Virus record (IMG/VR): IMGVR_UViG_2751185836_000001
Reading direction: 5' to 3' (one strand)
Source of the DNA: a virus
Lineage: Duplodnaviria; Heunggongvirae; Uroviricota; Caudoviricetes
Length of the DNA: 64,000 nt
Under the pieces are notes generated by a model. It did not search any database. It saw only the letters and a list, made by a program, of their open reading frames with translations, and was not told the DNA's origin. Shown piece by piece: positions 664 to 61,853 of the stretch. The translations under genes were made by a program, and so were the position numbers. Positions within the stretch are counted from its first letter, which is position 1; each line of letters starts with the position of its first letter.

Positions 664-1001
664 ATAATTTATCCTCCTTAGATTTATTTTATAATTACAG
701 TAATCATAATTCAAAAACATATAGACTATTAAAATTAAATACGATAGTATATTATTTTTTAATTTGTCATTTAATTCTCTAACGATTAGTGATATGATAG
801 AATAAGCGAACATATCATGGATCAGCATATGCTTCTCCAGGCGGGATACAGGTGGCGGCTCATGTTCGTCTGAGAAAATTTGCTTGCAGCCTGTTGTGTT
901 ATCATTATCTCAGACGGGATGAAAATACGACAACCAAGGCAAGCCGCCCGTTCAGCGGAGGATCCGTTCGCGCTTGTCAATATAATTGGAGGGAACGAGT
1001 T

Positions 1002-4000: not shown

Positions 4001-4559
4001 TTCTGACGCTAAGGATACAGCGGCAACAGAACTCGGCAACGCAGAGGCAGATGAACTCCAGGCGCAGGCGGATCTTGAAGCAGCAATCAAGGCATATGAG
4101 GAAGCAAAAGACCTCAAAGACCGTGCAGCTCTCCTTTCCTATGAGGATGCACTGGAGAACCCGGTTACAGATCCCGATTTTGCATATCTGAACGATTACA
4201 TCAATGCCATTGCTGATGCAGATGCTGCTGTTGTTGAAGCACAGAAACTGGCTGAAGAGAAATCAGCAGCCCTGGCTGATGCGGAGAAAGTATACGAAGA
4301 TGCAAAAGCAGCGCATAAGATCACACTGGCCAACCTTGCGGCTGCACAGGCAGACTATGACAGATTTGCCCAGGAAGAAGCTGACAGGCAGGCGGCAGAG
4401 AATGCCAAAGCGACTGCCGTTACACTGGATGCAACTGCTACGAAAGCAGCCCGGACAGGCGATAACGCGCCGATCATTGGCTATGTGGCTGCCGGAACTC
4501 TGGCACTTGCTGCAGTTGCAGTAGCCAGACCAAAAGTTCGGTACAGAAAACAGAAATAA
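1002..4559 (+). CDS. large cell-surface protein: signal peptide, Ala-rich coiled-coil repeats, central Gly/Tyr/Asn-rich domain, C-terminal hydrophobic anchor plus basic tail (no LPXTG)
   Basis: ATG at 1002 preceded by GGAGGG. N-terminus MKKQAIKATTAVAMAAVAASSVAAPVAQVVQAADEA is a signal peptide. Hundreds of residues follow an A/E/K/D/Q heptad-like composition. C-terminus GYVAAGTLALAAVAVARPKVRYRKQK is a TM anchor. The track ORF start at 852 is upstream of the SD. Confidence 0.8.
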   Translation: MKKQAIKATTAVAMAAVAASSVAAPVAQVVQAADEAANYDEAKANLEKAQAENAKADQAEKDAKAKYDAAKKEADDAMQAAIDAVNASTNAVDEAKSQFEKAKSDADQLFVNAGLLQDASQENLLAAQAAVKAKQEAYDKAVAALDEATAKLEQLQQEITVKEEDVTAKKGELDAATADLAEKQKAVDDAQAKIDELEALQQTSTEEYAQAEQALKDAQEAKETAEKNVITTQAAYDEAKRVYDEAVAAAAAGSPEYNAALQAVESAQAELDSATATVNQKKQVLDQAQMNVSIAQNAYDTAEDMETLAQAEKELADMEVAAAQAQADYDAALAVQSEKQGAYDTAYGTLQSAQAVKDQKDQAVADANAKLTEAQNNYTAAQQAVTDAQTAADTAKQTMETANATYDQAVKDTAAALEAKNDADAAVTTAQENVNAKQTVYDAAVKAYEDAQSKVSTAADQIAKGSLGFFEEMGSQDAINVLNDVRAQAHTNIGATGDATSLENMKAALEQLKTYYEILESEEQWDAIDGANPVYVSDRMMAIAQIQSNESSFILNHTGWYLNQGVGENLAFTSSNRNYDPYDGWYYDEKNNFITGNGGQTGHYFNIIDRGTTSTGFAINQYGSTYGHTYGQVFGITGIGSNPEENGYYTFDEYYSRFMDYYNSLTNAPTIAEQAKAAMDAAKGELDAAKEDLTKAEQAAQAAAQTYTDKQAAESTAQKNAQQAASDYQAALGTLEEKNGALATAQTAVDNAESAVSDAQGEASAAQTDVDNAQKAVDDAQADLDDAKEDADAKKADADGKVKAFEDKLEELEFAGLRIYQQGHKVGTVSEAQGRQTQAGTNLTNAQADKAEKSDALDAAKEAMTGPQTEYDEALEVEAEKQAALEAAENRRDEIEDAIAADIAEKRADMESKEAALNDAKNALTNATGDVTSAEATLTQADNKLTEVNRQLADAQTVYNDAADARDDSQDTVNTLQDEYDDLVEAITPLREAQAAEREASDAKDTAATELGNAEADELQAQADLEAAIKAYEEAKDLKDRAALLSYEDALENPVTDPDFAYLNDYINAIADADAAVVEAQKLAEEKSAALADAEKVYEDAKAAHKITLANLAAAQADYDRFAQEEADRQAAENAKATAVTLDATATKAARTGDNAPIIGYVAAGTLALAAVAVARPKVRYRKQK

Positions 4560-6798: not shown

Positions 6799-6905
6799 AA
6801 ATATAGACGCATTACCGCCGCACGCTCGTGACAATTGTGAGCATATGGCTACAACGCATGTTATGACATGATTGCAGTCACGGAAAACCAAGTGAAAGGA
6901 GTCGT
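6799..6905 (+). mobile_element. solo left-end fragment of IS200/IS605-family element A (TnpB-only IS)
   Basis: GCATTACCGCCGCACGCTCGTGAC followed by AATTGTGAGCATATGGCTACAACGCATGTTATGACATGATTGCAGTCACGGAAAACCAAGTGAAAGGAGTCGTCTAT matches the LE at 41141..41208 and 59084..59151. Similarity ends at the tnpB start codon position. Confidence 0.5.
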
Positions 6906-7760
6906 CTATCACATATGGATGTATCCTCACAGAGAGTACATATATTCTTTTAACCCCGGACGCAAAGGCTTCCGGGGGTTTTTATATGCGAGAAAACAAG
7001 AGATGAAGCTATCAATGTATAATATAACCATACCTAAGAGGCCATATATCTGCTATAATGAGGTGAGTATAATATATTAAGAAGAAAAGGAAATGTATAA
7101 AATGCATACGATCAACCATTATACCCTCAATACCGGAAATCTGCGTGTATCCTATCCGGAAGAGGTAAATAAGGATTTATTTTTTTTCCTTAAGAAGTAT
7201 ATCAATAGGGCTAAAAGAGGAAAGACACAACTGTTAGACGGAACATATGCACATCTTCCAGGTGGGAGACGATAAGCTCGTATTTACAGAGAGAAATGTG
7301 TTCGATTTTGTGTCGTCATTAATCCGGCTTACCAGGTAGCGGAAGACGTGGAAGCTGGTGGCATCGCCCTGGAAATAGATGGTGTTCTGCAATGGCATAC
7401 ATTCGGGAAAGATATGGGATGGATACCTGTCAGACCCCTCACGGAAAACGAAAAGATCTGCCATGAGATCATTGCAAAATACGGCAAATACGCCGGATGG
7501 AATACAAGAATGTAAAACTAATAGTCCCTGGAGGCAAACGCTTCCAGGGATTTATCTTTTACTTAGATAGTAAACATACACGTCCATGATATTCTTACCG
7601 CCATGGCCGGTGAACTTTCTGTTAGTTCTATTATACCCTCTTACAAAATTAATCGCAACTCTCAGATGGGAAAACGCATGGTCACGTGAGAAAATAAGGC
7701 TTCTCCCATATTCTGTATAATAGTAGTAAAGAGTAAACTGCGGTATGGGAGGAGTCTATC

Positions 7761-7997
7761 GTGAACAGGAAAAAGGATTATCGTGATCTGAAAAGGCACA
7801 GAGAGACCTGCCGTAAGCAGCATAAGAGGTACTACGGCAAGACCGCTTTTCTGTATGAAGGACGGGAGTGGACTTCAGCTGAAGACGACATGGTCGTGGC
7901 GCATACAGTCCCGGATACCGTCCTATCGGAACAGATCCAGCGGTCCGTGGGGGCGATACAGAGGCGGAGATGGTTCTTAAAAAAAATTCGGAGGTAA
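7761..7997 (+). CDS. hypothetical small basic protein
   Basis: GTG start with GGGAGGAG RBS. 78 aa, Arg/Lys-rich. No recognisable domain. Confidence 0.3.
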   Translation: MNRKKDYRDLKRHRETCRKQHKRYYGKTAFLYEGREWTSAEDDMVVAHTVPDTVLSEQIQRSVGAIQRRRWFLKKIRR

Positions 7998-8047: not shown

Positions 8048-8584
8048 ATGCCCCGCTTATGGACACGGGCGAACGGCATCAATGACGATATCGCGGTCAA
8101 AACAGCAAGGTTTATCATTGAGGTGGCCGTCCTTTATAACGCGGATGTGATCGTGTTCGAGCATCTGGATCTGAAGGGGCGGAAACGAGGCTCTAAAAAA
8201 CAGCGGCTCCACTTATGGAAGGCCCGCCGTGTCCAGTCCATTGTAACGGACCAAGCCAATCGCCTTGGTATGCGCGTCAGCCATGTCAACGCCTGGAACA
8301 CCAGCCGCCTTGCCTTCGATGGCAGCGGACGCGTCCTCCGGGGCCGGCAGTCTGAAAAGACGGGTGGCTCCTACAGCGTATGCGAGTTCCAGAACGGAAA
8401 GGTCTATAACTGCGACCTGAACGCCACCTATAACATAGGGGCGAGATACTTTATCCGGACACTCTTAAAATCCTTGCCGGCAACGGAGAGGTTGGCCGTG
8501 GAGGCAAAAGTTCCTTCATGCGCTAAGAGAAGCACCTGCACCTTATCCACCCTCGTTAGCCTGTACGCGGTCCTGGCGGCTTAA
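8048..8584 (+). pseudogene. tnpB: TnpB C-terminal fragment (RuvC-II/III region) of IS element A
   Basis: 178-aa ORF about 97% identical to residues 264-441 of the 441-aa TnpB at 41209..42534. It lacks the N-terminal two thirds. Confidence 0.6.
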
Positions 8585-8702
8585 CAGCTGTCAGATGGCT
8601 GAGTTCAGGCCCTATGGTGGAAAGACTGTCCGATCCCCCTAAAGGGGAACCGCCGCCAGGCGGCACTAGGAAGCACGTGAATTTATTCATGTGAGGCTTC
8701 AC
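8585..8702 (+). ncRNA. predicted omega-RNA (reRNA) scaffold region of IS element A
   Basis: Conserved about 118 nt downstream of the tnpB stop in all three A copies. It contains the hairpins GGGGAACCGCCGCCAGGCGGCA and GTGAATTTATTCATGTGAGGCTTCAC. Sequence diverges exactly after ...GGCTTCAC. Confidence 0.35.
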
Positions 8703-11906: not shown

Positions 11907-12131
11907 ATTATTTCCTCCATAAAAAAATATACCGAATACCAGAAGAGAAAGCAAGAGCTCAAAAGCAAACTCTCCTGTTATTTTGTTTTCTGCACATTAA
12001 ATTGAGCAAACCTGCGCAATAAAATACTCCAGGCATTTAAGATTGTCCCGGTATAAGTTGTGGAGGTTCACCGCAGAAAATGCCTCTTCACCGGGATTTG
12101 ATACTATATAAAAGAGCCAAGGAGGAATAGT

Positions 12132-12515
12132 ATGTTATTACCTGTAAGAGGAACCTATGAGAATAAAGTATTTTATGTAAGTGCTATGACCTACCAGCAG
12201 ATTGCAGACCATGTAGAGATTTGCAATGTATCACAGGAAGCTAATGCGAGCAAAGATGCGGACAGTGATCATCCAGAGCCTTTGCTGCTAAGTGTAAATA
12301 GTGGAAATCCAGACTGGTATGAGATGCGATATGCACCGACCGAAGGAGAGAAATACGATGGATTTGGCCTGCTAGAGATATCTGATAAGGAAAAATTCCG
12401 GCCTGTAAATGATCCTGAGCGAGTGATCGGGATCAGGGAAGCGCTCTGTCAGGATAAGAGCCTCGCAGGGCAGCAAATCCCCGTTATGCTAGTGGCCGGC
12501 AAGCTAGAAAAGTAA
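12132..12515 (+). CDS. hypothetical protein (partner of downstream AAA ATPase)
   Basis: RBS AAGGAGGAATAG. 127 aa. Followed 20 bp later by the AAA gene. Confidence 0.5.
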   Translation: MLLPVRGTYENKVFYVSAMTYQQIADHVEICNVSQEANASKDADSDHPEPLLLSVNSGNPDWYEMRYAPTEGEKYDGFGLLEISDKEKFRPVNDPERVIGIREALCQDKSLAGQQIPVMLVAGKLEK

Positions 12516-12534: not shown

Positions 12535-13416
12535 GTGAACGATTTTGAGAAAACACTTATCGACGCAGTATGCAGGAACGACCTGCGCAAGGCAAAGGAA
12601 ATAGCGAAGACCATATTGGAGCGGGACAAGACCCAGAAGAACCGGGCGTTTGTGAACTCCCGTCTGGCTCTTCTTAACAATTCTGCCATGAACCTGATGG
12701 AGTTACCAGCTAATCTTCAGAATATCCTTATCATGGAAGACGTTTCATTGTCTTTTAATGAAGAACGGTATTTTCTGAGCTTTAGGGAAGAGGACGTGGC
12801 CGCAAAGATATCCCTTATCAATAAGGCGTCACAGAAGCTGGCAGAGCTTGGGATCCGGTATCTCAATACAGTCCTTCTATATGGAGAGAGCGGAACCGGC
12901 AAGACCACTTTTGGTCGTTATATTGCCTACAAGATGGGCGTCCCCTTTGCTTATCTTAATTTCGGCCATGCGATCGACAGTTATTTGGGTGGCACACAGA
13001 AGAATATCTCACGGGCCTTCTCCTATGTGGCCCAGCAGAAATGCGTGTTCATGTTAGATGAGATTGACGCCATCGGGATGCGCCGTGGCGGCAGGGAAGA
13101 GGTTGGTGAGATGTCCCGGATCGTGATCACCCTCATGCAGTGCCTGGACACGCTGCCTAATGACGTCATCGTTCTGGGTGCCACGAACCGGCCGGATGTC
13201 ATAGACGAAGCACTTATGCGGCGCTTCTCAACCAAGCACGAGATCAAACGGCTGGATTACTATGAGAGAAAAGCCATGGTCAGCCGGTTCCTTCGGGATG
13301 TTGGGTATGACTATGACGGGGATTTCCTGGAGGAACTGTGTCAGCCAGACCGTACCCAGGCGGAGTTAATGAGTGAGCTCATTGAGGCGCTGGTCAGGAA
13401 ATACATTGCCGAGTAA
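12535..13416 (+). CDS. AAA+ family ATPase
   Basis: Walker A LYGESGTGKTT, Walker B VFMLDEIDAIG, sensor/arginine finger region VLGATNRPDVIDEALMRRF. GTG start with GAGAGGAG RBS. Confidence 0.75.
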   Translation: MNDFEKTLIDAVCRNDLRKAKEIAKTILERDKTQKNRAFVNSRLALLNNSAMNLMELPANLQNILIMEDVSLSFNEERYFLSFREEDVAAKISLINKASQKLAELGIRYLNTVLLYGESGTGKTTFGRYIAYKMGVPFAYLNFGHAIDSYLGGTQKNISRAFSYVAQQKCVFMLDEIDAIGMRRGGREEVGEMSRIVITLMQCLDTLPNDVIVLGATNRPDVIDEALMRRFSTKHEIKRLDYYERKAMVSRFLRDVGYDYDGDFLEELCQPDRTQAELMSELIEALVRKYIAE

Positions 13417-18623: not shown

Positions 18624-18850
18624 TAAAACGGGACCCCGGGCCCGACTGAGTCCGATGCCGCGAATGGTGCCACCAGGTGCCTTGGCATGAAATTCCATGA
18701 TAGAACGGATAACTATAACAAACGGAGTGTCTTTCCCAAAAGGAAATGACAGCTTCCAGAGGAAGCCGCCATTTTCCGAGAGGACATTGCCCAAGTGATG
18801 TTATTTTGTTTTTGGAACCTCCCGCTGGTAACAGCGTGGAGAGCAGTCAG
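18624..18850 (+). ncRNA. predicted omega-RNA scaffold region of IS element B
   Basis: The 227-bp segment between the tnpB stop and the RE terminus is conserved in all B copies and in the MITE. It contains multiple hairpins (CCCGGGCCCG..., GAGGAAGCCGCC...). Flanks diverge exactly after CAGTCAG. Confidence 0.35.
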
Positions 18851-19264
18851 GGAAAGATAGGAGCAAAACCACTGTATGAGAGTAGGGTAAGAGAATATGC
18901 CACTCAATCTTTCCCAGATAGTGGAGTAAAGGTCTTCAGTGATATCAGAAATTCTGGGCAGGGTACAGATAGGCAAAGTGTGACGGAGGAAAATGTGCTC
19001 CAAAAAGTCTCGGCAGTCACATACATCTTTATCTCCGATACTGTATGCACCAAGGAGCAGTTCCAGGATTTTATTGAGGACTGCGCGAAGTGGATGGAAG
19101 GTCAGTGCCAGGGCGTGGCCGCACAGTTCTGTCTGAGGCTCACGGATGTGGCACAGTGGGAGACGATTTACATGTTCAATTATGAAGACAAGCTCAGGGA
19201 AGATATATTTTCGGCTGAGGCCGAGTGTGGGATAACCGCTGCCGGAGAAGTCACGATTTATTAA
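18851..19264 (+). pseudogene. hypothetical gene whose 5' end is replaced by the IS-B right end
   Basis: The reading frame is open from inside the RE through 19264. It has no in-frame ATG for about 80 codons after the IS boundary. The only candidate start is GTG at 18980 with a weak RBS. Confidence 0.25.
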
Positions 19265-21890: not shown

Positions 21891-22086
21891 TGATTATTCC
21901 TCCTCTTATATAAATATTTCGCTGGAATATGACAAGAAAACCGATAACAAATACGTAGGTATGGGACGGGAAGTGTGGGAGGGCGGAACCAGGTTCCGCA
22001 AATATTTTTTTGCCTGCCTGAGAAAATAGGGGTTCTATAGTATCATGCTACAATACTGGTAAAGAAACAAAACGGAGGAGAAAACT

Positions 22087-22845: not shown

Positions 22846-22914
22846 GCGGCTGACTTGACGGCCGGAGCGTGAGGGTGGTAGCCACTCACGAAAGCCTGCA
22901 TTAAGTAATTTGAG
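22846..22914 (+). promoter_or_regulatory. conserved 69-bp dual-hairpin leader-like element preceding repeat array 1
   Basis: GCGGCTGACTTGACGGCCGGAGCGTGAGGG...CCACTCACGAAAGCCTG. About 85% identical to 24206..24274. Hairpins CGGCTG/CAGCCG and CGTGAG/CTCACG. Confidence 0.4.
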
Positions 22915-23083
22915 GTTTGAGACCTGTGACAAATTACACAGGTGTCAAGGGGTTGCAAGCATGTGTAAGGGCGTTCTGAGCGTTTGAGACCTGTGACAAA
23001 TTACACAGGTGTCAAGGTTTACGGTCTTTTAGTTCAACAACAGGAGAATTTTAGACCTGCTCTATTTTGCATAGGTGTCAAGG
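22915..23083 (+). repeat. CRISPR-like mini-array 1: two identical 35-bp repeats plus a degenerate third, with 32-bp unique spacers, period 67 bp
   Basis: GTTTGAGACCTGTGACAAATTACACAGGTGTCAAG occurs at 22915 and 22982 with internal palindrome CCTGTG..CACAGG. The degenerate copy is at ~23049. Spacers are unique. No cas genes in the window. Confidence 0.5.
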
Positions 23084-23167: not shown

Positions 23168-24130
23168 TTGTTCTTGTCAACAGAAGAAAAAGATGAGCGC
23201 AGGCTGTTTGCCTATGAGGAGCGGAGCGCGGCCTTAAAGCGTTCCCGTGGACGTTGCGCTTGCTGCGGCAAGAAACTGACTACAAAAACCATGACAATGG
23301 ATCACATCATTCCCCTGTCGCGCGGCGGGAAGAACGAGGCGGAAAACCTGGTCGCTCTATGCGAGGACTGCAATAAGAAAAAAGGCAATATGCTGTATCT
23401 TCCGTATGGATATTATAATGCGCTTAACGGAATTAGCGATAGTGAACTGATCAAAATGGAAAAATACGTGGAAGCCTGGTTCCAACAGATCAAGGATCAG
23501 TTTGACATACAGCGGTTTCCCCTTATAGCTCCCGTTACGAATGTTCAGGTCATCCCATTCCACACGCGGGCTGTCAAGAAAGTGCAATACAATCCACAGC
23601 TTACCTACCGATGGAGTCTCATCGGCAAGGACTACTATGATGAGATAGAAGCAGTAACGGGTCTCGACCTCAGAAAAGTCCGGAGCACTATTTCGAAATA
23701 CCGAAGAGTCGAAAAAGAAGATCCTGAAGCGGGGGAACTGCCGGTAGCGCTTTATTCTTTCCGGAAACTTACGAACGATAAGATCATTGCCGTGACAGCT
23801 GTCCGCATCGAACCAGACTCTCATCATATGACAATCTATTTTCCATGGTGCATCTCTACAAAAAAGTATGCGCCGGAAATATTACGCTCTCTCGCCGAGG
23901 TTTTGATCCGCACCGTAGACAGGATAGCCAAGTTAGACCTTCTGGCATATACAATGATCAGCGATATCCCTGATGTACTTGTAAATATCCGAACAGAAGG
24001 AAGGCTGTATGATCCCAAGGCGGTATATACGGATGGCGGGTCATATATCAATATGGACACCGGAGAATGGGGATCAGATATATTGACAGTGTGTCGGCAC
24101 GAACCGCTGCAGGAGTATTACAATACGTAA
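23168..24130 (+). CDS. HNH-nuclease domain protein (N-terminal HNH, about 250-aa uncharacterised C-terminal domain)
   Basis: TTG start 7 nt after AAGGAGGG. CACCGKKL...DHIIPLSRGGKNEAENLVALCEDCNKKKG is an HNH with Cys4. Flanked on both sides by repeat arrays. Confidence 0.6.
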   Translation: MFLSTEEKDERRLFAYEERSAALKRSRGRCACCGKKLTTKTMTMDHIIPLSRGGKNEAENLVALCEDCNKKKGNMLYLPYGYYNALNGISDSELIKMEKYVEAWFQQIKDQFDIQRFPLIAPVTNVQVIPFHTRAVKKVQYNPQLTYRWSLIGKDYYDEIEAVTGLDLRKVRSTISKYRRVEKEDPEAGELPVALYSFRKLTNDKIIAVTAVRIEPDSHHMTIYFPWCISTKKYAPEILRSLAEVLIRTVDRIAKLDLLAYTMISDIPDVLVNIRTEGRLYDPKAVYTDGGSYINMDTGEWGSDILTVCRHEPLQEYYNT

Positions 24131-24205: not shown

Positions 24206-24274
24206 GCGGCTGACTTGACAGCCGGAGCGTGAGGGCATAGTCCACTCACGAAAGCCTGTGTTATATAGCTTGAG
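24206..24274 (+). promoter_or_regulatory. second copy of dual-hairpin leader-like element preceding array 2
   Basis: GCGGCTGACTTGACAGCCGGAGCGTGAGGGCATAGTCCACTCACGAAAGCCTG..., same orientation and same position relative to the repeats as at 22846. Confidence 0.4.
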
Positions 24275-24506
24275 GTTTGAGACCTATGAAGATTTACACG
24301 GGTGTCAAGTGCATTAGCCGCACTCCAAGGCATCATTACCGTTTGAGACCTATGAAGATTTACACGGGTGTCAAGTGTTTGCGCTGCCGACAGACACAGG
24401 GGATGCGTTTGAGACCCGTGATGATTTACACAGGTGTCAAGTATTGATCATTTTGCATTGTTGTCTGTTTTTGTTGAGACCTTTGCATTTATACACGGGT
24501 GTCAGG
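24275..24506 (+). repeat. CRISPR-like mini-array 2: four 35-bp repeats (two identical, one variant, one degenerate) with 30-31-bp unique spacers, period 65-66 bp
   Basis: GTTTGAGACCTATGAAGATTTACACGGGTGTCAAG at 24275 and 24341. The variant GTTTGAGACCCGTGATGATTTACACAGGTGTCAAG is at 24407 and a degenerate copy at 24472. Repeat ends GTTTGAGACC / GGTGTCAAG are conserved with array 1. Confidence 0.5.
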
Positions 24507-25323: not shown

Positions 25324-25460
25324 GAAATATCTGAAAGAGAGGGGATGGAGCACAAAAGTGCTCCTCTTTTTTTGTTCATCTGAGAAAATAGCCCTGTCTC
25401 AGGTTTCGATATAATATAAGTACAGCAAAGAGGAAAATGTAAGCCAGGAGGAAGTAGGAT

Positions 25461-31327: not shown

Positions 31328-31554
31328 TAAAACGGGACCCCGGGCCCGACTGAGTCCGATGCCGCGAATGGTGCCAACAGGTGCCTTGGCATGAAATTCC
31401 ATGATAGAACGGATAACTATAACAAACGGAGTGTCTTTTCAAACAGAAAATGACAGCTTCCAGAGGAAGCCGCCATTTTCCGAGAGGACATTGCCTAAGT
31501 GATGTTATCTTGTTCCCGGAACCTCCCGCTGGTAACAGCGTGGAGAGCAGTCAG
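31328..31554 (+). ncRNA. predicted omega-RNA scaffold region of IS element B
   Basis: Same conserved 227-bp RE as 18624..18850. Confidence 0.35.
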
Positions 31555-33087: not shown

Positions 33088-33222
33088 TTAATATCGTTTA
33101 AGAGACTCAACTTGAGTCTCTTTTTTATTCCTTTGTCTGAGAAAAATCGCTTATTGTAATACATGGTATTATTATATGTAGCAAAGATCGTAAAACACGA
33201 AAAACAGGAAGGGGGATTTCCG

Positions 33223-35391
33223 GTGGAAACCTTAAAAGGAACTGTAAAAAGGATCATATACAAAAACGAAGACACGGGCTTCCATATCATTTCGCTTCAG
33301 AACAATGACTTTGATGGCTGGGACAGCAGGGTGGTGGTCAAGGGAACCTTCTTCCCCATCGCGGAGGATGACGAGCTGACGATCTACGGAGAATATGCCG
33401 ATGATCCGAAATACGGACGGCAGTTCAACTGTGAAACCTATGAGGTCAACCTCCCCACAGACGCGAAGTCCATAGAAAAGTATCTGGCCGCCGGCATGAT
33501 CAAGGGGATCGGGCCGGCCAGGGCAAAGAAGATCGTAAAGCAGTTCAAGGATGATACCATGCGGGTCATCGAAGAGGAGCCGGAGCTGCTCACCCTCATT
33601 CCCGGCATCACGGACAAGACCGTGGCCCGCATCCGGGAGTCCATGACCGAGCGCCTGGGCCAGCAGCGGGTGATGATCCAGCTCTGCGGTCTTGGCGTGA
33701 CCCTTGGATTGGCCCAGAAGTTGTGGAAGAACTACAAAGAGAAGACCCTCCATATCATCCAAAGCGACCCGTATAAGTTAATCGATGACGTATGGGGCGT
33801 TGGCTTCTCAAAAACGGACGATATCGCCTTGAAACAGGGAATGAGCCGGACCGCCCCCAAGCGGATCCAGGCGGGTATCGTGTACACCCTGAAGACCAAC
33901 CGGAGCAGCGGAAGCCTTTACATGATGCTCCCGGACGTGAACCGGAAGTCAGCGGAGGTACTGCAGATAGATGAGACGAAGGTAGCCCAGGAAGTCCAGA
34001 ACATGGACGGCCACAGGCTCACCATCATGGGCAGGGACAATGACTATGTCTATCTTGACAAGGATTACCGTATAGAGAAGGAAACAGAAGAGGATATCAT
34101 CCGTATCAGCAAGGCGAAGATTGCTCCTAAGAAGCTGGACAAAACCTTATCCAAACTGGACAACACATTGGACGAGGTGCAGATGGGAGCGGTACGGACG
34201 GCTGCCGGCAGTGCCCTCATGGTCCTGACCGGAGGCCCTGGTACAGGAAAGACAACCACGGTCAATACGATCATCCGGTATTTTGAGCTTTCCGGTAAAT
34301 CAGTCGCATTGGCGGCCCCCACCGGGCGAGCGGCCAAAAGGATGATGGAGGCGACAGGTCGGGAGGCCAGGACACTGCACCGGCTCCTGGAGCTTGGACG
34401 GAGTGAGGACGGGGATATGGGCTACGGGAAAAACGACAGTGACCCGATCGACGCGGATGTGGTGATCGTGGACGAGACATCCATGATGGACATCTATATC
34501 GCCCATGCCCTGTTCGACGCGATCGAGACCGGAACACAGGTCATCCTGGTGGGTGATAAGAACCAGCTCCCCTCCGTGGGCCCAGGTAACGTGCTGGATG
34601 ATATCATCATGTCCGGTATTTGCCCGGTGGTGGAGCTCAAAAAGATCTACCGGCAGGCGGAAGGCAGTTTCATTATCGAAAACGCCCATCGTATCCTGTC
34701 CGGCCACGCCCTGAACCTGACAAACAAGACCTCTGATTTCTTTTTCAAGGAGTGCGATGATCCGCAAAAGCTGCAGGAGCTCCTGGTACACTATGTTGCT
34801 GACTCCCTGCCCGGCTTTACCGGCGAGTCCGAGATCCAGGTGCTTTCCCCTGTACGGAAGAGGCAGCTTGGCGTTGACAACCTCAACAAAGTGCTCCAGG
34901 ACCGGCTGAACCCAAGAAGAGACGGGGAGCCTGTTGCCAAGAATGGCTTCCGCATTGGTGACCGGGTGATCCAGACAGTCAATGACTACAACCGGGAGAA
35001 GGTGTTCACCAGGGATCTCCGGAAGAAAGAACTTGGCGTGTTCAACGGTGATCTGGGGACAGTGACCGCTATCGACCAGGAGGATGAAAAGGTCACGATC
35101 GAATTCGAGGACGGCTGGGCGGCTACCTATGAGTATTCCGAACTGGAGGCCCTGAGCCTTTCCTATGCACTGACGATCCATAAATCTCAGGGAAGTGAGT
35201 TCCCTGTGGTGGTCATCCCGGTGTATGACTATATCCCCATGCTCACCAGCATGAACCTGCTCTATACCGGCGTGACCCGCGCGAAAAAGGCCATCCTGCT
35301 GATTGGAAGCAAAAAGGTCCTTTACAACATGATCCGTAACGTAAAACCGACAAAAAGATACAGCGGGCTACTAAAGCACGTTGGGCAATAG
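33223..35391 (+). CDS. RecD2-like ATP-dependent SF1 DNA helicase
   Basis: GTG start 6 nt after GGAAGGGGG. N-terminus ETLKGTVKRIIYKNEDTGFHII is RecD2-type. HhH region present. Walker A LTGGPGTGKTTTV and Walker B VIVDETSMMD. C-terminal YALTIHKSQGSEFPVVV. Confidence 0.75.
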   Translation: METLKGTVKRIIYKNEDTGFHIISLQNNDFDGWDSRVVVKGTFFPIAEDDELTIYGEYADDPKYGRQFNCETYEVNLPTDAKSIEKYLAAGMIKGIGPARAKKIVKQFKDDTMRVIEEEPELLTLIPGITDKTVARIRESMTERLGQQRVMIQLCGLGVTLGLAQKLWKNYKEKTLHIIQSDPYKLIDDVWGVGFSKTDDIALKQGMSRTAPKRIQAGIVYTLKTNRSSGSLYMMLPDVNRKSAEVLQIDETKVAQEVQNMDGHRLTIMGRDNDYVYLDKDYRIEKETEEDIIRISKAKIAPKKLDKTLSKLDNTLDEVQMGAVRTAAGSALMVLTGGPGTGKTTTVNTIIRYFELSGKSVALAAPTGRAAKRMMEATGREARTLHRLLELGRSEDGDMGYGKNDSDPIDADVVIVDETSMMDIYIAHALFDAIETGTQVILVGDKNQLPSVGPGNVLDDIIMSGICPVVELKKIYRQAEGSFIIENAHRILSGHALNLTNKTSDFFFKECDDPQKLQELLVHYVADSLPGFTGESEIQVLSPVRKRQLGVDNLNKVLQDRLNPRRDGEPVAKNGFRIGDRVIQTVNDYNREKVFTRDLRKKELGVFNGDLGTVTAIDQEDEKVTIEFEDGWAATYEYSELEALSLSYALTIHKSQGSEFPVVVIPVYDYIPMLTSMNLLYTGVTRAKKAILLIGSKKVLYNMIRNVKPTKRYSGLLKHVGQ

Positions 35392-35544
35392 GCGGGGAAG
35401 GAGATATTATAAAGATGAGTAACGATACTTGGGTCTTGATTGAACATAACCTAAGCACGTAATCCCCTTCCTCGACAGGGGGGGAGTGCTTCGCTACCTG
35501 CCAAAGCTATCATGGCAATGTTGTCCATTGTCTACCAGTTTACT

Positions 35545-35595
35545 GTTGTTATCTTGTTTCAGGAACCTCCCGCTGGCAGCGTGGAGAGCAGTCAG
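35545..35595 (+). mobile_element. solo fragment of IS-B right end
   Basis: GTTGTTATCTTGTTTCAGGAACCTCCCGCTGGCAGCGTGGAGAGCAGTCAG matches the terminal about 50 bp of the B RE (one indel in the hairpin). Confidence 0.4.
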
Positions 35596-35756
35596 GCTGC
35601 TTCGGATTTTGCATATGGAAGAAATGGTATTTTCTGTTCTGCTGGCATATTATTTGTTTTGCCCGGGATGGGCTTGCATAAAATAAGCGGAAGGAACTAA
35701 TTTCCTTCCGTTTTTCCATGTTCCTTCGAAAGAAAAAGAAGAGGAGGAACACAAAA

Positions 35757-36374: not shown

Positions 36375-36699
36375 ACTTATTCTGCCAAGAAGGCTCCGAT
36401 AAGGGGCCTTTTTCTTTGGTGCAAATGTGTATTTATAGAAAATCGTGCGTTTCTTTCATATTCCTGCGAAATATTTTAAAGAGGAGGAAAAACTTCGTTA
36501 AAATGTATTAATGCGAGAACGTACAAGGAAACCTCAATCTTTACGGCACAAAACTACAGAAGTGTCAAACAATCGAGCCTTGATCTTAACAATCTTGAAT
36601 TTTTAGAATTTTATAGAGCTTATTGTAAAATTATTGAAAAATACAACGGAATAGTATATAATTATAATAACAAAAACAATTATGTGAATATAGCTGATT

Positions 36700-36834
36700 A
36701 TGAAAAAACTGTCTAAAAAAGAAGCCAAAAAAGTAATGGGTGGAAAGAAGTATCACTGTGATTATTGCAGTTTTTCCACAGACAGTCATGATGTAATGGT
36801 TATGCATTATAAGGGACTGCATAATATTACATGA
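36700..36834 (+). CDS. candidate bacteriocin precursor with double-glycine leader (44 aa; not in ORF track)
   Basis: MKKLSKKEAKKVMGG then KKYHCDYCSFSTDSHDVMVMHYKGLHNIT. Leader L-12, S-11, E-8, V-4, G-2G-1 fits the LSxxELxxIxGG consensus. Followed by a perfect-stem terminator and then ABC transporter genes, including a C39 peptidase exporter. The RBS is weak. Confidence 0.5.
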   Translation: MKKLSKKEAKKVMGGKKYHCDYCSFSTDSHDVMVMHYKGLHNIT

Positions 36835-40170: not shown

Positions 40171-40950
40171 ATGCGGTTTCGTGGAGTCTATCAACATGAT
40201 ACAAGGGATTGTGGAGTCGCATGCTTGGCTACAATCTGCAATTTTTATGGATTAAACGTTCCATTATCTTACATTCGAGAGTTAGAAAAGGTGAATATGA
40301 ATGGATCTAGTATCTATGGAATTTGCAAAGCTGCCGAGGTACTTGGAATGACAGCGGACGCTTATCAAGGAGAAATCGAAGATTTACTTTCTAATGTAAA
40401 CGAGACAAAGGAAATAGCAGTTCCATTTATAGTGCATACCATAAAAGATGATCTTTATCATTTTATGGTCGTAAAAAAGATAAGCACAAAATCAGTATGG
40501 CTTTTTGATCCAGATGAAGGAAACAGAAAAATAAAATTGGACGAATTTGCAAAGATCTGGACAGGCTATTTTATTGCTTTTCAATTGACGCCTCTTTTCA
40601 AAAAAGAAAATTTAAAAAAAGGAGCTTATCAAAATTATTCCTTATTATTTAAAAAATATAGAAAAGAATTTTTTACTATTCTGGGAACCTCTTTGTTAAT
40701 TGCGGGAATTACAATAGTAAGTACCCTCATTTTCCAACACATTATTGATCATTTTATGATGCACCCGAATTATGAATTAATGAGGGAAGTGAATACGATT
40801 TTCGCTATCATAATAGGTCTTTATATCTTAAGGTTGGGGATTTACCTTTTCAGGAGTATTATCGTAGCCATGCTTTTTCGCAATATAGAAAAGGATTTCC
40901 TTGAAAATTTTCAGGAAAACCTACTCAAAGTACCGTTGTCCTATTTTGAC
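40171..40950 (+). pseudogene. N-terminal part (C39 peptidase domain + first TM helices) of a bacteriocin-processing ABC exporter, cut by IS element A
   Basis: QHDTRDCGVACLATICNFYG is the C39 Cys-active-site motif. The ORF runs into the IS LE at 40951 (LPPHARDFSRE* is encoded by the IS). No TMD or NBD continuation is found after the IS. Confidence 0.65.
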
Positions 40951-41208
40951 GCATTACCGCCGCACGCTCGTGACTTTAGTCGTGAGTAAGGCGGTCTTAT
41001 ATTTTATTCTATTAATAGTTATTTTTTGTTATTGTTAAGATATGTATAAACAACATTTTTTCTAAGTTTTTTTGTTCATCTGATAAAAATGATCTTATTT
41101 GCATATTTGTTATAATGGATAAAAATGTATCTTAATTGTGAGCATATGGCTACAACGCATGTTATGACATGATTGCAGTCACGGAAAACCAAATGAAAGG
41201 AGTCGTCT

Positions 41209-42534
41209 ATGAAACTCATCTCCACATATAGTGTGAAACTAAAAGAATACAGACATATCTTCAAAGACACCATCCGAGTGTACCGTGCAGCGGTAGACTT
41301 CTTTCTCATGGTCTGTGACCAGGAATGGGAGAAAGTCTCTGACATCAGTACATCAAAATTTCAGATGACGTTTATAGAACAGCTCACACATAAAACAGCA
41401 AAAAATCCGGCCACAAAATATGATTTTGATGCAGTCTTTTATAAGTTTCCCTCTTACCTACGTCGAGCAGCCATTTATGAGACTTTAGGTAAATACTTTT
41501 CCTATCGATCCAACCTGGCAAACTGGGAAAGGGATCCGCAGGGGCGGAAACCTTCCTTCCCTAAAGCGGGATACGTGTATCCCTGTCTGTACCGGGATGG
41601 CATGTACGAGCGGACAGATATATACACAGCTCGGATCAAGGTCTATATCCGCAATACCTGGGACTGGATCGATATTAAACTTCGTAAAAGTGATGTGGAT
41701 TACATCCAACGTCACTGCTCCCACAGAAAGGAGTGTGCCCCCACTCTCCAGAAAAGGGGAAAAGAATGGTTCCTGGACTTTCCTTTTGAGGAACAGGTTA
41801 CATTGAACAACACACCTTCCAAAGAGCAGGTGATCGCTGCCGTGGACCTTGGCATCAACAGCGCCGCCACGGTTTCCGTTATGCGCGCGGATGGCACTGT
41901 CCTGGGCCGGCATTTCTGTCGGCTTCCCAGAGAAAAAGACTCTCTTGCGCATGCGGTGAACCGGGTCAAAAAAGCACAGCAGCACGGAGCCAGGAAAATG
42001 CCCCGCTTATGGGCACGGGCGAACGGCATCAATGACGATATCGCGGTCAAAACAGCAAGGTTTATCATTGAGGTGGCCGTCCTTTATAACGCGGATGTGA
42101 TCGTGTTCGAGCACCTGGACCTGAAGGGTCGGAAGCGCGGCTCCAAAAAGCAGCGTCTCCACTTATGGAAAGCCCGCCGTGTCCAGTCCATCGTAACGGA
42201 CCAAGCCCACCGTCTTGGTATGCGCGTCAGCCATGTCAACGCCTGGAACACCAGCCGCCTTGCCTTCGATGGCAGCGGGCGCGTCCTCCGGGGCCGGCAG
42301 TCTGAAAAGACGGGTGGCTCCTACAGCGTATGCGAGTTCCAGAACGGAAAGGTCTATAACTGCGACCTGAACGCCACCTATAACATAGGGGCGAGATACT
42401 TTATCCGGACACTCTTAAAATCCTTGCCGGCAACGGAGAGGTTGGCCGTGGAGGCAAAAGTCCCTTCATGCGCTAAGAGAAGCACCTGCACCTTATCCAC
42501 GCTTACTAGCCTGTACGCGGTCCTGGCGGCTTAA
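41209..42534 (+). CDS. tnpB: TnpB (OrfB) RNA-guided endonuclease of IS element A
   Basis: 441 aa. C-terminal NAWNTSRLAFDGSG...CDLNATYNIGARYF carries the TnpB RuvC-III D.NAA.NI signature. Confidence 0.8.
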   Translation: MKLISTYSVKLKEYRHIFKDTIRVYRAAVDFFLMVCDQEWEKVSDISTSKFQMTFIEQLTHKTAKNPATKYDFDAVFYKFPSYLRRAAIYETLGKYFSYRSNLANWERDPQGRKPSFPKAGYVYPCLYRDGMYERTDIYTARIKVYIRNTWDWIDIKLRKSDVDYIQRHCSHRKECAPTLQKRGKEWFLDFPFEEQVTLNNTPSKEQVIAAVDLGINSAATVSVMRADGTVLGRHFCRLPREKDSLAHAVNRVKKAQQHGARKMPRLWARANGINDDIAVKTARFIIEVAVLYNADVIVFEHLDLKGRKRGSKKQRLHLWKARRVQSIVTDQAHRLGMRVSHVNAWNTSRLAFDGSGRVLRGRQSEKTGGSYSVCEFQNGKVYNCDLNATYNIGARYFIRTLLKSLPATERLAVEAKVPSCAKRSTCTLSTLTSLYAVLAA

Positions 42535-42652
42535 CAGTTGTCAGATGGCTGAGTTCAGGCCCTATGGTGGAAAGGCTGTCCGATCCCCCTAAAGGGGAAC
42601 CGCCGCCAGGCGGCAGTAGGAAGCACGTGAATTTATTCATGTGAGGCTTCAC
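42535..42652 (+). ncRNA. predicted omega-RNA scaffold region of IS element A
   Basis: Same conserved 118-bp RE as 8585..8702. Confidence 0.35.
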
Positions 42653-45768: not shown

Positions 45769-46162
45769 CTGCTCTCCACGCTGTTACCAGCGGGAGGTTC
45801 CATAAACAAGATAACATCACTTAGGCAGTTCTCTCTCGGAAAATGGCGGGGTCCTCTGGAAGCCGCCGTTTCCTTTTTATGAAGACACTCCGTTTGTTAT
45901 AGTTATCTGTTCTATCATGGAATTTCATGCCAAGGCACCTGTTGGCACCATTCGCGGCATCGGACTCAGTCGGGCCCGGGGTCCCATTTTATTATACAGT
46001 CTGGAACCCAAAACTGCGGGTATCATAATGTAGTTCTATTATAATATAAAACGAAGAAAAATGCAAACGTATGTTCTTATTTCCGCTTTTCTTACAAGCC
46101 ATGCGAGAGTTTCGCTTTCATCTGCACACTGTTACCAGTGGCAGCTTTCCCGCTTGGTTATT
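45765..46162 (-). mobile_element. MITE/PATE derived from IS element B (LE joined to RE, no ORFs)
   Basis: The rc of 46118..46162 equals the B left end (AATAACCAAGCGGGAAAGCTGCCACTGGTAACAGTGTGCAG), with flanking GTAA as the rc of target TTAC. 45765..45990 is the rc of the 227-bp B right end. The ~130-bp interior matches the tnpA promoter region of copy 3. Confidence 0.6.
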
Positions 46163-49703: not shown

Positions 49704-50009
49704 TTACTCTGGCGTTTTAATCATCCCATATGACCGCAGCAGCAGGTACATGTCCCGCATACCTGTCATATACATGAGGTCATTCATATCCGTGTTATTC
49801 CGGTCGGTGGCCTCCAGGAGATCCTCCACAACTTCCCGCTGCCGCTCTGTGAGCGTGCTTTTGATTTCTATATATTGTTTTTCAGCTTTCCCGTGAGCCT
49901 CGGACGACTCCTGATATGCCTGGTCATTCTTGATAAAATCCATCATAGACTGCTCTTTGAGAAAAGCCAAGCCTTCTTTTAGCAGATCCTGCACCATGCG
50001 TTCATCCAT
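49704..50009 (-). CDS. hypothetical protein (YolD-like position next to Y-family polymerase)
   Basis: Start at MDERM with GGAGGTAATGAG RBS (the longer track ORF has a GC-rich implausible N-terminus). Divergent from the polymerase gene. Confidence 0.35.
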   Translation of the reverse strand: MDERMVQDLLKEGLAFLKEQSMMDFIKNDQAYQESSEAHGKAEKQYIEIKSTLTERQREVVEDLLEATDRNNTDMNDLMYMTGMRDMYLLLRSYGMIKTPE

Positions 50010-50215
50010 CTCATTACCTCCATCCTGTCTTATAAGCGGATTATACATTATATTTAGAAAAGATACGCCTTTCTCACATGAAGAAAAATATTTATGAATG
50101 AAAAAACGGAACCAGGTTCCGCCTTTTGCCAAAATAGCCCAGAACATATATTCGATTTTAATGTTGTCAGAACGTATGTTCTGTGTTATAGTTTTCTCAG
50201 AAAGGGGGTGGAAGC

Positions 50216-55843: not shown

Positions 55844-56069
55844 AAAATAGGACCCCGGGCCCGACTGAGTCCGATGCCGCGAATGGTGCCAACAGGTGCC
55901 TTGGCATGAAATTCCATGATAGAACAGATAACTATAACAAACGGAATGTCTTCTTAAAAAAGAAAAGACGGCTTCCAGAGGAACCCGTCATTTCCTGAGA
56001 AGACATTGCCTAAGTGATGTTATCTTGTTCTCGGAACCTCCCGCTGGTAACAGCGTGGAGAGCAGTCAG
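55844..56069 (+). ncRNA. predicted omega-RNA scaffold region of IS element B
   Basis: Conserved RE, as 18624..18850. Confidence 0.35.
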
Positions 56070-58892: not shown

Positions 58893-59151
58893 GCATTACC
58901 GCCGCACGCTCGTGACTTTAGTCGTGAGTAAGGCGGTCTTATATTTTATTCTATTAATAGTTATTTTTTTGTTATTGTTAAGATATGTATAAACAACATT
59001 TTTTCTAAGTTTTTTTGTTCATCTGATAAAAATGATCTTATTTGCATATTTGTTATAATGGATAAAAATGTATCTTAATTGTGAGCATATGGCTACAACG
59101 CATGTTATGACATGATTGCAGTCACGGAAAACCAAGTGAAAGGAGTCGTCT

Positions 59152-60478: not shown

Positions 60479-60596
60479 CAGTTGTCAGATGGCTGAGTTC
60501 AGGCCCTATGGTGGAAAGACTGTCCGATCCCCCTAAAGGGGAACCGCCGCCAGGCGGCACTAGGAAGCACGTGAATTTATTCATGTGAGGCTTCAC
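60479..60596 (+). ncRNA. predicted omega-RNA scaffold region of IS element A
   Basis: Conserved RE, as 42535..42652. Confidence 0.35.
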
Positions 60597-60843: not shown

Positions 60844-60950
60844 CAACAGTTAGTGAAAAGTCCGGGGATTACTTCCCGGGCTTTTTGCTGTTCACCTGAG
60901 AAAATGAAGCGGATCCGTATTTTGCTACAATCGGAGAGAAGGAGGAAATC

Positions 60951-61783: not shown

Positions 61784-61853
61784 CGGTTCATCTGAGAAAA
61801 ATCCGAAACAACTATGGTCGGTATAATAATAGTAAGGGAAGGGAGAAAACGGT

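What the first reader, a model, noticed from the sequence alone, without database searches (positions are those of the whole stretch)
25368..25420. Recurrent promoter-like module TTGTTCATCTGAGAAAAT - N19-21 - TATAAT at seven sites, one inside the IS-A left end
Occurrences are at 866 (CGTCTGAGAAAAT...TATCAT, upstream of the surface protein, with an extended inverted repeat CGTCTGAG..CTCAGACG), 22015 (CTGAGAAAAT-N21-TACAAT), 25371, 33130 (before the RecD2-like gene), 41075 (in the LE of IS-A, also in copy 2 at 59018: CATCTGATAAAAAT-N20-TATAAT, upstream of tnpB), 60893 (CACCTGAGAAAAT-N20-TACAAT) and 61785. The -10-like hexamer sits a constant about 20 nt after the motif. This is too far for the motif to be a sigma-70 -35 at 17-bp spacing. 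It suggests an activator or alternative-sigma recognition element, or a MerR-like long-spacer promoter. One copy inside a TnpB-only IS implies the IS borrows the same control.
Basis: seen in the sequence. Interest (0 to 1): 0.5.

Follow-up and report, generated by a model that had tools for sequence, protein, structure and literature searches.

The report
Recurrent −35-less promoter module of a mobile element
A family of look-alike promoters, each with a normal −10 box, no −35 box and a shared 15-base upstream element at a fixed distance, drives about ten gene cassettes in a large integrated mobile element of a gut Clostridium relative; it is real and conserved, but it is an ordinary kind of thing for phage-like elements.

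Summary
The window comes from Lachnoclostridium phocaeense Marseille-P3177. It carries nine strong and two or three weaker copies of [T-run]-TTCAYCTGAGAAAAT-N20-(TGn)TAYAAT. All are intergenic and all point the same way as the gene downstream. The C of CTGAG lies 30-31 nt before the −10 box. Chance expectation is below 0.3 copies. No site has a −35 hexamer at 16-20 bp. Spacer sequences differ while spacer length is fixed. Most sites directly follow a terminator.

The module, with an extended −10, is kept upstream of orthologous RecD2-like helicase and HNH genes in related metagenomic elements (98% to 55% protein identity). The 55% lineage uses a variant core, CTGYAAAAA. Homology between close relatives breaks at the module's 5' edge. 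The IS copy lies about 135 nt inside the left end of a TnpB element, and in the few contigs recovered the copies with readable flanks sit among genes of this element family.

Most likely these are housekeeping-sigma promoters in which a sequence-specific protein bound near −40 stands in for the −35 contact (class II-type activation). A repressor operator, an RNA polymerase-intrinsic upstream element and an alternative sigma factor remain open. A MerR-like mechanism is not supported. No transcription start sites or binding factor were determined, and the host chromosome could not be scanned. A second promoter-like class (CATATT box) was also found.

The parts
25347..25374 (+). Rho-independent terminator hairpin (25347-25364) plus T-run, directly in front of the reported module
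   Evidence: (7-bp stem, 5 G-C pairs, tail TCTTTTTTTG). The same arrangement is called at 21983-21999 and 33100-33122. It can be read directly at about 60862-60885, 61755-61780 and 6955-6985.
25375..25389 (+). Upstream element TTCATCTGAGAAAAT of the reported site (about −47 to −33 if the −10 box is −12 to −7)
   Evidence: highest PWM score, 31.8.
25410..25415 (+). −10 hexamer TATAAT of the reported site. The spacer 25390-25409 (20 nt) contains no −35 match. The downstream gene starts at 25461.
865..905 (+). Class A module upstream of the 1185-aa surface protein gene (1002-4559): TTCGTCTGAGAAAAT-N20-TGT-TATCAT. It is embedded in the inverted repeat 867-875 / 908-916.
6983..7023 (+). Weaker member: terminator, then GCGAGAAAAC-N20-TATAAT
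   Evidence: PWM score 7.4.
7681..7721 (+). Class A module GTCACGTGAGAAAAT-N20-TATAAT upstream of the 78-aa gene 7761-7997
12067..12107 (+). Class A module TTCACCGCAGAAAAT-N20-TGA-TACTAT upstream of 12132-12515 and the AAA ATPase gene 12535-13416
22013..22054 (+). Class A module CTGCCTGAGAAAAT-N21-TGC-TACAAT, after terminator 21983-21999. It lies upstream of the 81-aa gene and the GIY-YIG endonuclease gene.
33132..33172 (+). Class A module TTTGTCTGAGAAAAAT-N19-TGG-TATTAT, after terminator 33100-33122. It lies upstream of the RecD2-like helicase gene (33223-35391) and is conserved in orthologous loci.
41075..41116 (+). Class A module TTCATCTGATAAAAAT-N20-TGT-TATAAT inside the left end of IS-A copy 1 (40946-42652), upstream of tnpB (41209-42534)
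59018..59059 (+). The identical module in IS-A copy 2 (58888-60596), whose tnpB is frameshifted
60891..60931 (+). Class A module TTCACCTGAGAAAAT-N20-TGC-TACAAT, after a hairpin at about 60862-60879. It lies upstream of the NUMOD4/HNH endonuclease gene 60951-61382.
61787..61827 (+). Class A module TTCATCTGAGAAAAAT-N19-TATAAT upstream of the 147-aa gene 61854-62297
50040..50082 (-). Weaker member on the minus strand: TTCATGTGAGAAAGG, with TATAAT 32 nt after the G. It lies upstream of the minus-strand gene 49704-50009.

Best explanation
The motif is the shared core of one promoter class (class A) of a large integrated mobile element, either a prophage or a phage-derived island, in Lachnoclostridium phocaeense.

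Each copy is a self-contained cassette: the upstream gene's terminator and T-run, then the 15-nt element TTCAYCTGAGAAAAT at about −47 to −33, then a 19-21-nt spacer of free sequence, then a primary-sigma type −10 (TAYAAT, usually with TGn). A likely start lies about 6-7 nt further on, often at a GTA.

The promoters have no −35 box. I infer that the host RNA polymerase with its housekeeping sigma recognises the (extended) −10. I further infer that a sequence-specific protein bound to the upstream element, centred near −40 on a fixed face of the helix, supplies the missing upstream contact, as a class II-type activator or −35 surrogate does. This would put about ten scattered cassettes under one common control: helicase, homing endonucleases, TnpB of IS-A, and small unknown genes.

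Shown: the existence of the module, its non-randomness, geometry, orientation and intergenic position, the lack of a −35, and its conservation with a variable spacer in relatives.

Inferred: that transcription starts there, that the primary sigma is used, that a protein binds the element, and that its effect is activation.
For: - Non-random, strand-specific and intergenic.
- Fixed distance of 30-31 nt from CTGAG to the −10, although spacer sequences are unrelated.
- No −35 better than 3 of 6 at 16-20 bp in any site. Canonical TTGACA/TTGTCA-N17 promoters do occur in the same element or its near relative: 10100 region, the LexA-boxed Y-polymerase promoter at 50150-50190, and the beta'-like operon in L288. 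The host's normal promoter geometry is therefore standard and class A is a distinct class.
- Compensation: the three independent strong sites without TGn have a perfect TATAAT; five of the six with TGn have an imperfect hexamer, and IS-A has both.
- Phylogenetic footprint: upstream of RecD2-like orthologues at 98, 85, 84, 84/78 and 55% protein identity, the only invariant blocks are TG..AAAA and ATGnTAnnAT, and the spacer and flanks vary (alignment A1).
- The HNH-320 orthologue is also preceded by the module in L268/L282, L283 and L285.
- Lineage-wide co-variation: the 55% lineage uses CTG[T/C]AAAAA at five sites.
- Terminators lie immediately upstream.
Against: - No transcription start data and no binding protein were identified. 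No sigma-like or obvious activator gene was seen in about 77 kb of this genome (window plus flanks) or in the further ~10 kb seen only in a near relative.
- Extended −10 promoters can work without any upstream factor, so the element could be modulatory or inhibitory.
- The invariant part (TG + AAAA) is short and A-rich, and could be contacted by RNA polymerase itself.
- I could not scan the rest of the host chromosome, so an element-specific versus host-wide distribution is untested.
- The gene set under class A gives no clear temporal signature.
Confidence: 0.45

Rival explanations
1. The element is an operator for the mobile element's master repressor, as SPBRE is for MrpR in SPbeta. The promoters fire on their own through the extended −10 and are kept silent in the integrated state by a protein bound at −47 to −33.
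For: SPbeta has about ten copies of a 15-bp element in promoter regions, bound by MrpR (PMC10516654). I recovered that element at seven SPbeta promoters. Perfect or extended −10 boxes could give factor-independent activity. Terminator insulation suits separately silenced units.
Against: SPBRE lies in the spacer and −10 of promoters that do have a −35 (TAGACA-N17-TATAAT). Here every site lacks a −35, and the element keeps a strict orientation and a +/-1 distance, which is unusual for a simple roadblock. The element is not palindromic. No MrpR-like or integrase-fold Pfam hit was seen among the genes examined in the window, although candidates were not compared directly with MrpR.
Confidence: 0.22
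2. No extra factor is involved. The element is contacted by RNA polymerase itself, either as an UP-like A/T-tract for alpha-CTD or as a displaced −35-like nTGnnA read by sigma region 4. It simply makes −35-less promoters stronger.
For: The invariant positions across lineages are only TG and AAAA. A T-run lies at about −58 to −50 and an A-run at about −38 to −34. CTGAGA matches TTGACA at 4 of 6 positions (one search lists it at 22018).
Against: The −35-like hexamer would sit 24 bp from the −10, about 7 bp beyond what the primary sigma spans (established knowledge). The UP proximal subsite is −46 to −38, not −38 to −34. TTCAY and CTG are conserved, which a pure A/T-tract does not explain. Lineage-wide co-variation (AG versus YA) suggests a co-evolving reader.
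Confidence: 0.18
3. The element is the −35 region of an alternative sigma factor, host- or element-encoded, whose −10 specificity resembles TATAAT.
For: It is asymmetric, has strict orientation and spacing, and lacks a canonical −35. The element is large and only partly seen, so a sigma gene could lie outside the roughly 87 kb examined.
Against: The −10 is the housekeeping consensus with a TGn/TRTG −16 region. The 20-nt gap after the motif is longer than in any sigma-70-family consensus I know. No Sigma70_r2 or r4 hit was found in any called gene of the element.
Confidence: 0.1
4. The cassettes matter mainly as recombination joints, like the terminator/promoter PeSL modules of T4-like phages, where short shared sequences let unrelated genes be swapped. 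This can coexist with any of the regulatory readings.
For: The terminator plus promoter composite matches the PeSL description (PMC4122927). Between the window and L281 (RecD2-like 98% identical) homology begins at the T-run and motif and is absent upstream. Upstream neighbours of the RecD2-like gene differ in every lineage. Four modules drive selfish genes: GIY-YIG, NUMOD4/HNH, HNH-320 in relatives, and TnpB.
Against: Only about 15 + 9 nt are shared, which is short for homologous recombination. A breakpoint at a gene's promoter is expected anyway if cassettes move as units.
Confidence: 0.05

Closest known systems
SPBRE (SPbeta repeated element) bound by the master repressor MrpR/YopR in Bacillus phage SPbeta
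   Same: Both are about 15-bp elements repeated at about ten intergenic promoter regions of a large temperate element, giving scattered transcription units one common control (PMC10516654). The window also shares some gene content with SPbeta: YolD next to a Y-family polymerase, a non-specific endonuclease, and a bacteriocin-type ABC exporter.
   Different: The sequence is unrelated (caAATACAAAAAATATGTATataat). SPBRE fills the spacer and −10 of promoters that do have a −35 at 17 bp. Here the element is upstream, the spacer is free and there is no −35. No MrpR homologue was detected by Pfam, though no direct comparison was made. There is no BLASTP similarity to YonO.
Class II activator-dependent phage promoters (Mu Mor/C middle and late promoters; lambda cI at PRM; CRP/FNR class II)
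   Same: Good −10, poor or absent −35, and an activator site centred at about −41 to −43 at a fixed distance (established knowledge, not tested here).
   Different: Those sites are dyad-symmetric, whereas this element is asymmetric. No Mor/C-like gene was found. Activation is inferred only.
T4 middle promoters (MotA box plus AsiA 'sigma appropriation')
   Same: A housekeeping-type −10 is combined with a phage-specific box that replaces the −35 (established knowledge).
   Different: The MotA box (TGCTTtA) is centred at −30, 11-13 bp from the −10. Here the box ends 19-21 bp from the −10 and has a different sequence.
PeSL composite terminator/promoter cassettes of T4-like phages
   Same: Small terminator-plus-promoter composites are repeated between variable genes and coincide with mosaic junctions (PMC4122927, PMC2839356).
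   Different: PeSLs use canonical early sigma-70 promoters. They occur in a different host phylum, and no sequence is shared.
Long-spacer primary-sigma promoters activated by Spo0A~P (spoIIG, spoIIE) and MerR-type promoters
   Same: A −35-like sequence lies too far from the −10 (21-22 bp and 19-20 bp respectively) and needs a factor (established knowledge).
   Different: Here the gap from the −35-like CTGAGA is 24 bp. 0A boxes (TGTCGAA) are not present as such. A MerR-type dyad in the spacer is absent.

Membership tests
Primary-sigma (sigma-70/SigA) promoter | −10 hexamer close to TATAAT, with A at position 2 and T at position 6 | tested here: met
   TATAAT, TACAAT, TATCAT, TATTAT or TACTAT at all sites; invariant TAnnAT in the RecD2-like orthologue alignment.
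Primary-sigma (sigma-70/SigA) promoter | −35 hexamer close to TTGACA, 16-18 bp upstream of the −10 | tested here: not met
   The best match at 16-20 bp is 3 of 6, and usually 0-2.
Extended −10 (TGn / −16 TRTG) promoter | TG one base upstream of the −10 hexamer | tested here: met
   Present at six of the nine independent strong window sites and invariant (ATGnTAnnAT) in all six RecD2-like orthologue promoters. Absent at 7686, 25380 and 61792, which have a perfect TATAAT.
MerR-type long-spacer promoter | A 19-20-bp spacer between −35 and −10, containing a conserved dyad operator | tested here: not met
   Spacers are unrelated in sequence between sites and between orthologues, and no shared dyad exists. 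Only 25380 and 870 have a second TCTCAG, and at different distances.
SPBRE / MrpR operator of SPbeta | The 15-bp SPBRE sequence overlapping the spacer and −10 of a promoter that contains a −35 | tested here: not met
   SPBRE was recovered from SPbeta (AAAAAATATGTAT core, TAGACA-N17-TATAAT context). It resembles class A in neither sequence nor position.
UP element | An A/T-rich −59 to −38 region with a proximal A-tract at −46 to −38 | tested here: inconclusive
   A T-run and an A-run are present, but the A-run is at about −38 to −34, and conserved C/G positions (TTCAY, CTG) are not part of the UP consensus. Transcription start sites are unknown, so numbering is +/-2.
Alternative sigma promoter (ECF, sporulation, SigH, SigD, sigma-54) | Family-specific −35/−10 (or −24/−12) pair at its characteristic spacing | tested here: not met
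   Compared by eye with consensus sequences recalled from the literature; none has a TATAAT −10 with a 20-nt gap to an upstream CTGAGAAAAT. No sigma domain occurs in any called gene of the element. A formal matrix scan was not done.
Class II activator-dependent promoter | A sequence-specific activator bound at about −41.5 is required for transcription | not testable with these tools
   Only the geometry (centre about −40, fixed phase, no −35) is compatible. Binding and activation need experiments.
PeSL-like terminator/promoter shuffling cassette | A composite terminator plus promoter repeated at boundaries of variable genes, with homology breakpoints at the cassette | tested here: inconclusive
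   The composite structure is met at five or six sites. One clear breakpoint lies at the module edge. The sample is too small to show enrichment.

The most novel reading that the evidence does not exclude
The conserved nTGnnA-AAA block is a real −35-type contact held an obligatory 24 bp from the −10. On this reading the element reprograms host RNA polymerase spacing with a dedicated factor. One candidate is the conserved two-gene pair found about 14-17 kb beyond the window's right end: a 397-aa protein consisting only of a beta' N-terminal (clamp) domain, plus a 378-aa HTH protein. Alternatively, one factor reads the related CWGnGAAAT block at −42 in class A and at the start site in the CATATT class B promoters, switching between the two classes as phi29 p4 does.
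Probability: 0.07. Interest if true: 0.7.

Novelty: new member of a known kind. Interest (0 to 1): 0.33.

Why it matters
It gives a concrete, testable regulon signature for a family of large and almost entirely uncharacterised mobile elements of human-gut Lachnospiraceae. The signature is a 15-nt element, a fixed 30-31-nt offset, and an extended −10. It marks transcription-unit boundaries in a region where about 80% of genes have no annotation. It also shows that a TnpB-only IS and several homing endonucleases use the element's own promoter type. A DNA pull-down with the element could identify the regulator. In kind, however, recurrent factor-dependent promoter cassettes are well known in phages.

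Tried and rejected
1. Exact and degenerate motif scans of IMG/VR gave only single chance hits per contig (TTCATCTGAGAAAAT; TTCAYCTGAKAAAAW-N18-21-TAYAAT).
3. Megablast of 20 kb against INPHARED phages found no match.
4. Protein-based searches of IMG/VR with the 165-aa protein and with the RecD2-like helicase found no relatives.
5. I tried to sample other parts of the host chromosome through identical IS proteins, but each protein is on record at one place in this genome only.
6. My early idea of an 'SPbeta-like prophage with a YonO polymerase' failed. The PF04997 protein beyond the window has no BLASTP similarity to YonO. It is a homologue of the bacterial beta' N-terminal domain. No virion genes were seen in the roughly 87 kb viewed.
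7. The SPBRE comparison showed a different sequence and geometry.
8. Rfam found nothing in the window.
9. A −35 hidden in the spacer, or a −10 lying 17 bp after CTGAGA, is not present (and read directly from the sequence).
10. CodY, Spo0A, LexA, SinR, IHF and ARG-box consensus sequences, recalled from memory, do not fit. A true LexA box is elsewhere, at 50169-50182.
11. The beta'-like plus HTH pair also occurs in an apparently chromosomal context that has no class A modules, so no specific link is shown.

Full report
**Source and setting.** A look-up by exact protein sequence places the window in chromosome LT635479.1 (3.50 Mb) of assembly GCA_900120345.1, reversed, at roughly 1,458,900-1,522,900. 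A culturomics table assigns this accession to Lachnoclostridium phocaeense Marseille-P3177 (PMC7596177, a retracted paper used only for the accession table).

Genes run almost entirely on the + strand and most have no Pfam hit. Those that do include:
- HNH, GIY-YIG and NUMOD4 endonucleases
- a RecD2/Dda-like helicase
- an AAA ATPase
- a non-specific endonuclease
- a Y-family polymerase next to a YolD-like gene with a LexA box
- HigB/HigA and Fic
- an FtsX/ABC/C39 exporter
- three IS200/IS605-type elements with 491-aa TnpB-like genes, and two and a half copies of a TnpB-only element, IS-A

In a near-identical relative a tyrosine integrase lies about 25 kb beyond the right end. No virion genes were seen in about 77 kb of this genome plus a further ~10 kb in that relative. 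I therefore call it a large integrated mobile element, a prophage or a phage-derived island, rather than a defined phage type.

**The observation.**
- CTGAGAAAAT with up to one mismatch occurs 22 times against 6.9 expected.
- The composite pattern occurs 5 times (strict) or 10 + 1 times (loose), against 0.003-0.03 and 0.18-0.32 in Markov simulations.
- After ribosome-binding-site words, CTGAGAA is the most enriched 7-mer in the regions up to 160 nt upstream of called genes.
- A weight matrix adds sites at 7686 and 12072, and weaker ones at 6988 and, on the minus strand, 50077 in front of a minus-strand gene.

All strong sites are intergenic and point toward the next gene. The −10 box ends 20-97 nt before the start codon.

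**Anatomy.** The invariant measure is the distance from the C of CTGAG to the −10 hexamer: 30 nt at seven of the nine independent strong sites and 31 nt at two. The A-run varies between four and five A's within that distance. The spacers share no sequence.
- No hexamer 16-20 bp upstream of the −10 matches TTGACA at more than three positions.
- Six of the nine independent strong sites have TGn.
- The three that lack it (7686, 25380, 61792) have a perfect TATAAT. Five of the six TGn sites have imperfect hexamers; the exception is IS-A, which has TGn and a perfect TATAAT.
- Five or six sites follow a terminator hairpin and T-run within about 10-25 nt (by direct reading).
- Downstream of the −10 a GTA/purine-rich stretch recurs (for example TATAATAGTAGTAAAG and TATAATAATAGTAAGG), which would fit a start 6-7 nt after the box. 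This is read from the sequence and not tested.

With the −10 at −12 to −7, the element spans about −47 to −33.

**Class A is distinct from the host's ordinary promoters.** Canonical promoters with 17-bp spacing occur in the same element or its near relative:
- TTGACA-N17-TAAATT before higB (about 10100)
- TTGTCA-N17-TATAGT overlapping the LexA box before the Y-family polymerase
- TTGACA-N17-TACAAT before the beta'-like operon in the near relative

**Relatives.** A protein search with the RecD2-like helicase gave a graded series of homologues. Their contigs were fetched. The module precedes the helicase gene in every lineage from 98% down to 55% identity:
- L281: CTGAGAAAAGT-N19-TATCAT
- L268/L282: CTGAGAAAAAT-N19-TATCAT
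- L275: GTGAGAAAAT-N20-TACAAT
- L283/L284: GTGAGAAAAAT-N19-TAAAAT
- L285-287: CTGTAAAAAT-N21-TATCAT

In the alignment the only invariant blocks are T-G, AAAA and ATGnTAnnAT. The HNH-320 orthologue carries the module in L268/L282, L283 and L285. The 55% lineage uses CTG[T/C]AAAAA at five sites, a lineage-wide shift at the same two positions. One 55% relative (L272) and the 75% relative (L277) lack the module before the helicase gene.

Between the window and L281, homology starts at the T-run and motif and is absent upstream. The upstream neighbour differs in every lineage.

**The IS copy.** IS-A spans 40946-42652 and 58888-60596, and the module sits about 135 nt inside the left end. Copies in other metagenomic contigs that include this part of the left end carry it too. 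The copies with readable flanks lie in contexts belonging to this element family: the same flanks as in the window, or next to an NfeD gene as in L268. A decayed left-end remnant at 6806-6920 lacks the promoter segment.

**Mechanism.** The shown facts fit a promoter that depends on its −10 and on something bound at a fixed phase near −40: no −35, a housekeeping-type and often extended −10, an asymmetric and strictly oriented upstream element at a fixed distance, a free spacer, conservation across diverged relatives, and lineage-wide co-variation.

I take class II-type activation, or a '−35 surrogate', as most likely (0.45). The rivals are:
- a repressor operator in the manner of SPbeta's SPBRE (0.22)
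- an upstream element contacted by polymerase itself (0.18)
- an alternative sigma (0.10)
- a mainly recombinational, PeSL-like role, which can coexist with the others (0.05)

The MerR-type reading fails because the spacer is not conserved. For comparison I recovered SPBRE from the SPbeta genome. It lies in the spacer and −10 of TAGACA-N17-TATAAT promoters and has an unrelated sequence.

**Limits.** There are no transcription start data and no factor was identified. One 21-kb apparently chromosomal locus of another bacterium had no intergenic module, which is only a weak control.

**Verdict.** This is a real, conserved promoter class of a poorly known gut mobile-element family. Its geometry is unusual, but it belongs to a familiar category (recurrent, probably factor-dependent phage promoters). 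Interest is moderate to low.

Noticed in passing
window 21931(−), 35717, 44476, 45046, 46546(−), 46581, 47603, 48606, 53424, 53927, 58213; also 22370, 52115, 58174(−); L272 ~6005, 8280, 14800; L288 3673, 4645, 13405, 21144: A second and more numerous promoter-like module ('class B'): T-run, then (T)CATATTCC, then WGnGAAAT, then AAGAGGAGGA, then ATG. The C of CATATT lies a near-constant 39-44 nt before the start codon at 11 sites. The module often comes directly after a terminator and has no −35. CATATTC occurs 10 times against 1.4 expected upstream of genes. It also occurs in distant relatives, sometimes in tandem after class A (L285, before the RecD2-like gene). Its CWGnGAAAT part resembles the class A core.
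   Followed up: partly
window 22846-23082 and 24206-24506: Two CRISPR-like mini-arrays flank the HNH-320 gene (23168-24130), with 3 and 4 copies. The repeat is about 36 nt (GTTTGAGACCTGTGACAAATTACACAGGTGTCAAGG, with an internal 7-bp hairpin). Spacing is 65-67 nt with unrelated spacers of about 30 nt. Each array is preceded by an 83%-identical 'leader' of about 70 nt. There is no Rfam hit. In relatives this HNH gene instead has a class A promoter.
   Followed up: partly
L266 16561-18914 (− strand; corresponding to about 68.4-70.8 kb in window coordinates, beyond the window's right end); L288 10001-12354; L289 10001-12352: A conserved two-gene pair. The first protein is 397 aa and consists only of a beta' N-terminal domain (PF04997, 56 bits; 30-33% identity to bacterial RpoC). 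The second is 378 aa with a weak HTH_3 match. In L288 the pair is driven by a perfect TTGACA-N17-TACAAT promoter. It has no BLASTP similarity to SPbeta YonO. The pair also occurs in an apparently chromosomal context in another bacterium.
   Followed up: partly
window 36699-36833 (+): A small unannotated ORF encodes MKKLSKKEAKKVMGG|KKYHCDYCSFSTDSHDVMVMHYKGLHNIT. It looks like a double-glycine leader peptide just upstream of the FtsX/ABC genes. The C39-peptidase ABC gene (40171-40989) is truncated by IS-A.
   Followed up: no
window 6806-6920 and 8048-8702: Remnants of a third IS-A copy: a left end lacking the ~150-bp promoter-bearing segment, and a 3' tnpB fragment with the right end. Between them lie the class A site at 7686 and a 78-aa gene.
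   Followed up: partly
window 50140-50190: A LexA (Cheo) box, AGAACGTATGTTCT (50169-50182), overlaps a canonical TTGTCA-N17-TATAGT promoter in front of the Y-family polymerase / YolD-like pair. This is an SOS-controlled unit, as with yolD-uvrX in SPbeta.
   Followed up: partly
window 6776, 11129, 21985, 28929, 50108 (GGAACCnGGTTCC), with near variants at about 43010 and 57000; also L268, L272: The same hairpin core, (A/G)CGGAACCnGGTTCCG(C/T) followed by a T-run, recurs across the element and its relatives. Most copies are intergenic and look like terminators, but two (11129, 28929) fall within called genes. It may be a conserved bidirectional terminator or another shared cassette part.
   Followed up: no
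window 867-916: At the 870 site the class A core lies in a 9-bp inverted repeat (CGTCTGAGA ... TCTCAGACG) that brackets the whole promoter. This gives a second, weaker, divergent motif copy on the minus strand (913).
   Followed up: partly
window 18624-18990, 31328-31553, 35480-35600, 45769-46000 (inverted), 55844-56024: A ~200-nt conserved sequence follows each 491-aa TnpB-like gene of the IS200/IS605-type elements, and solo copies exist. It is presumably the guide (omega) RNA / right-end region.
   Followed up: no
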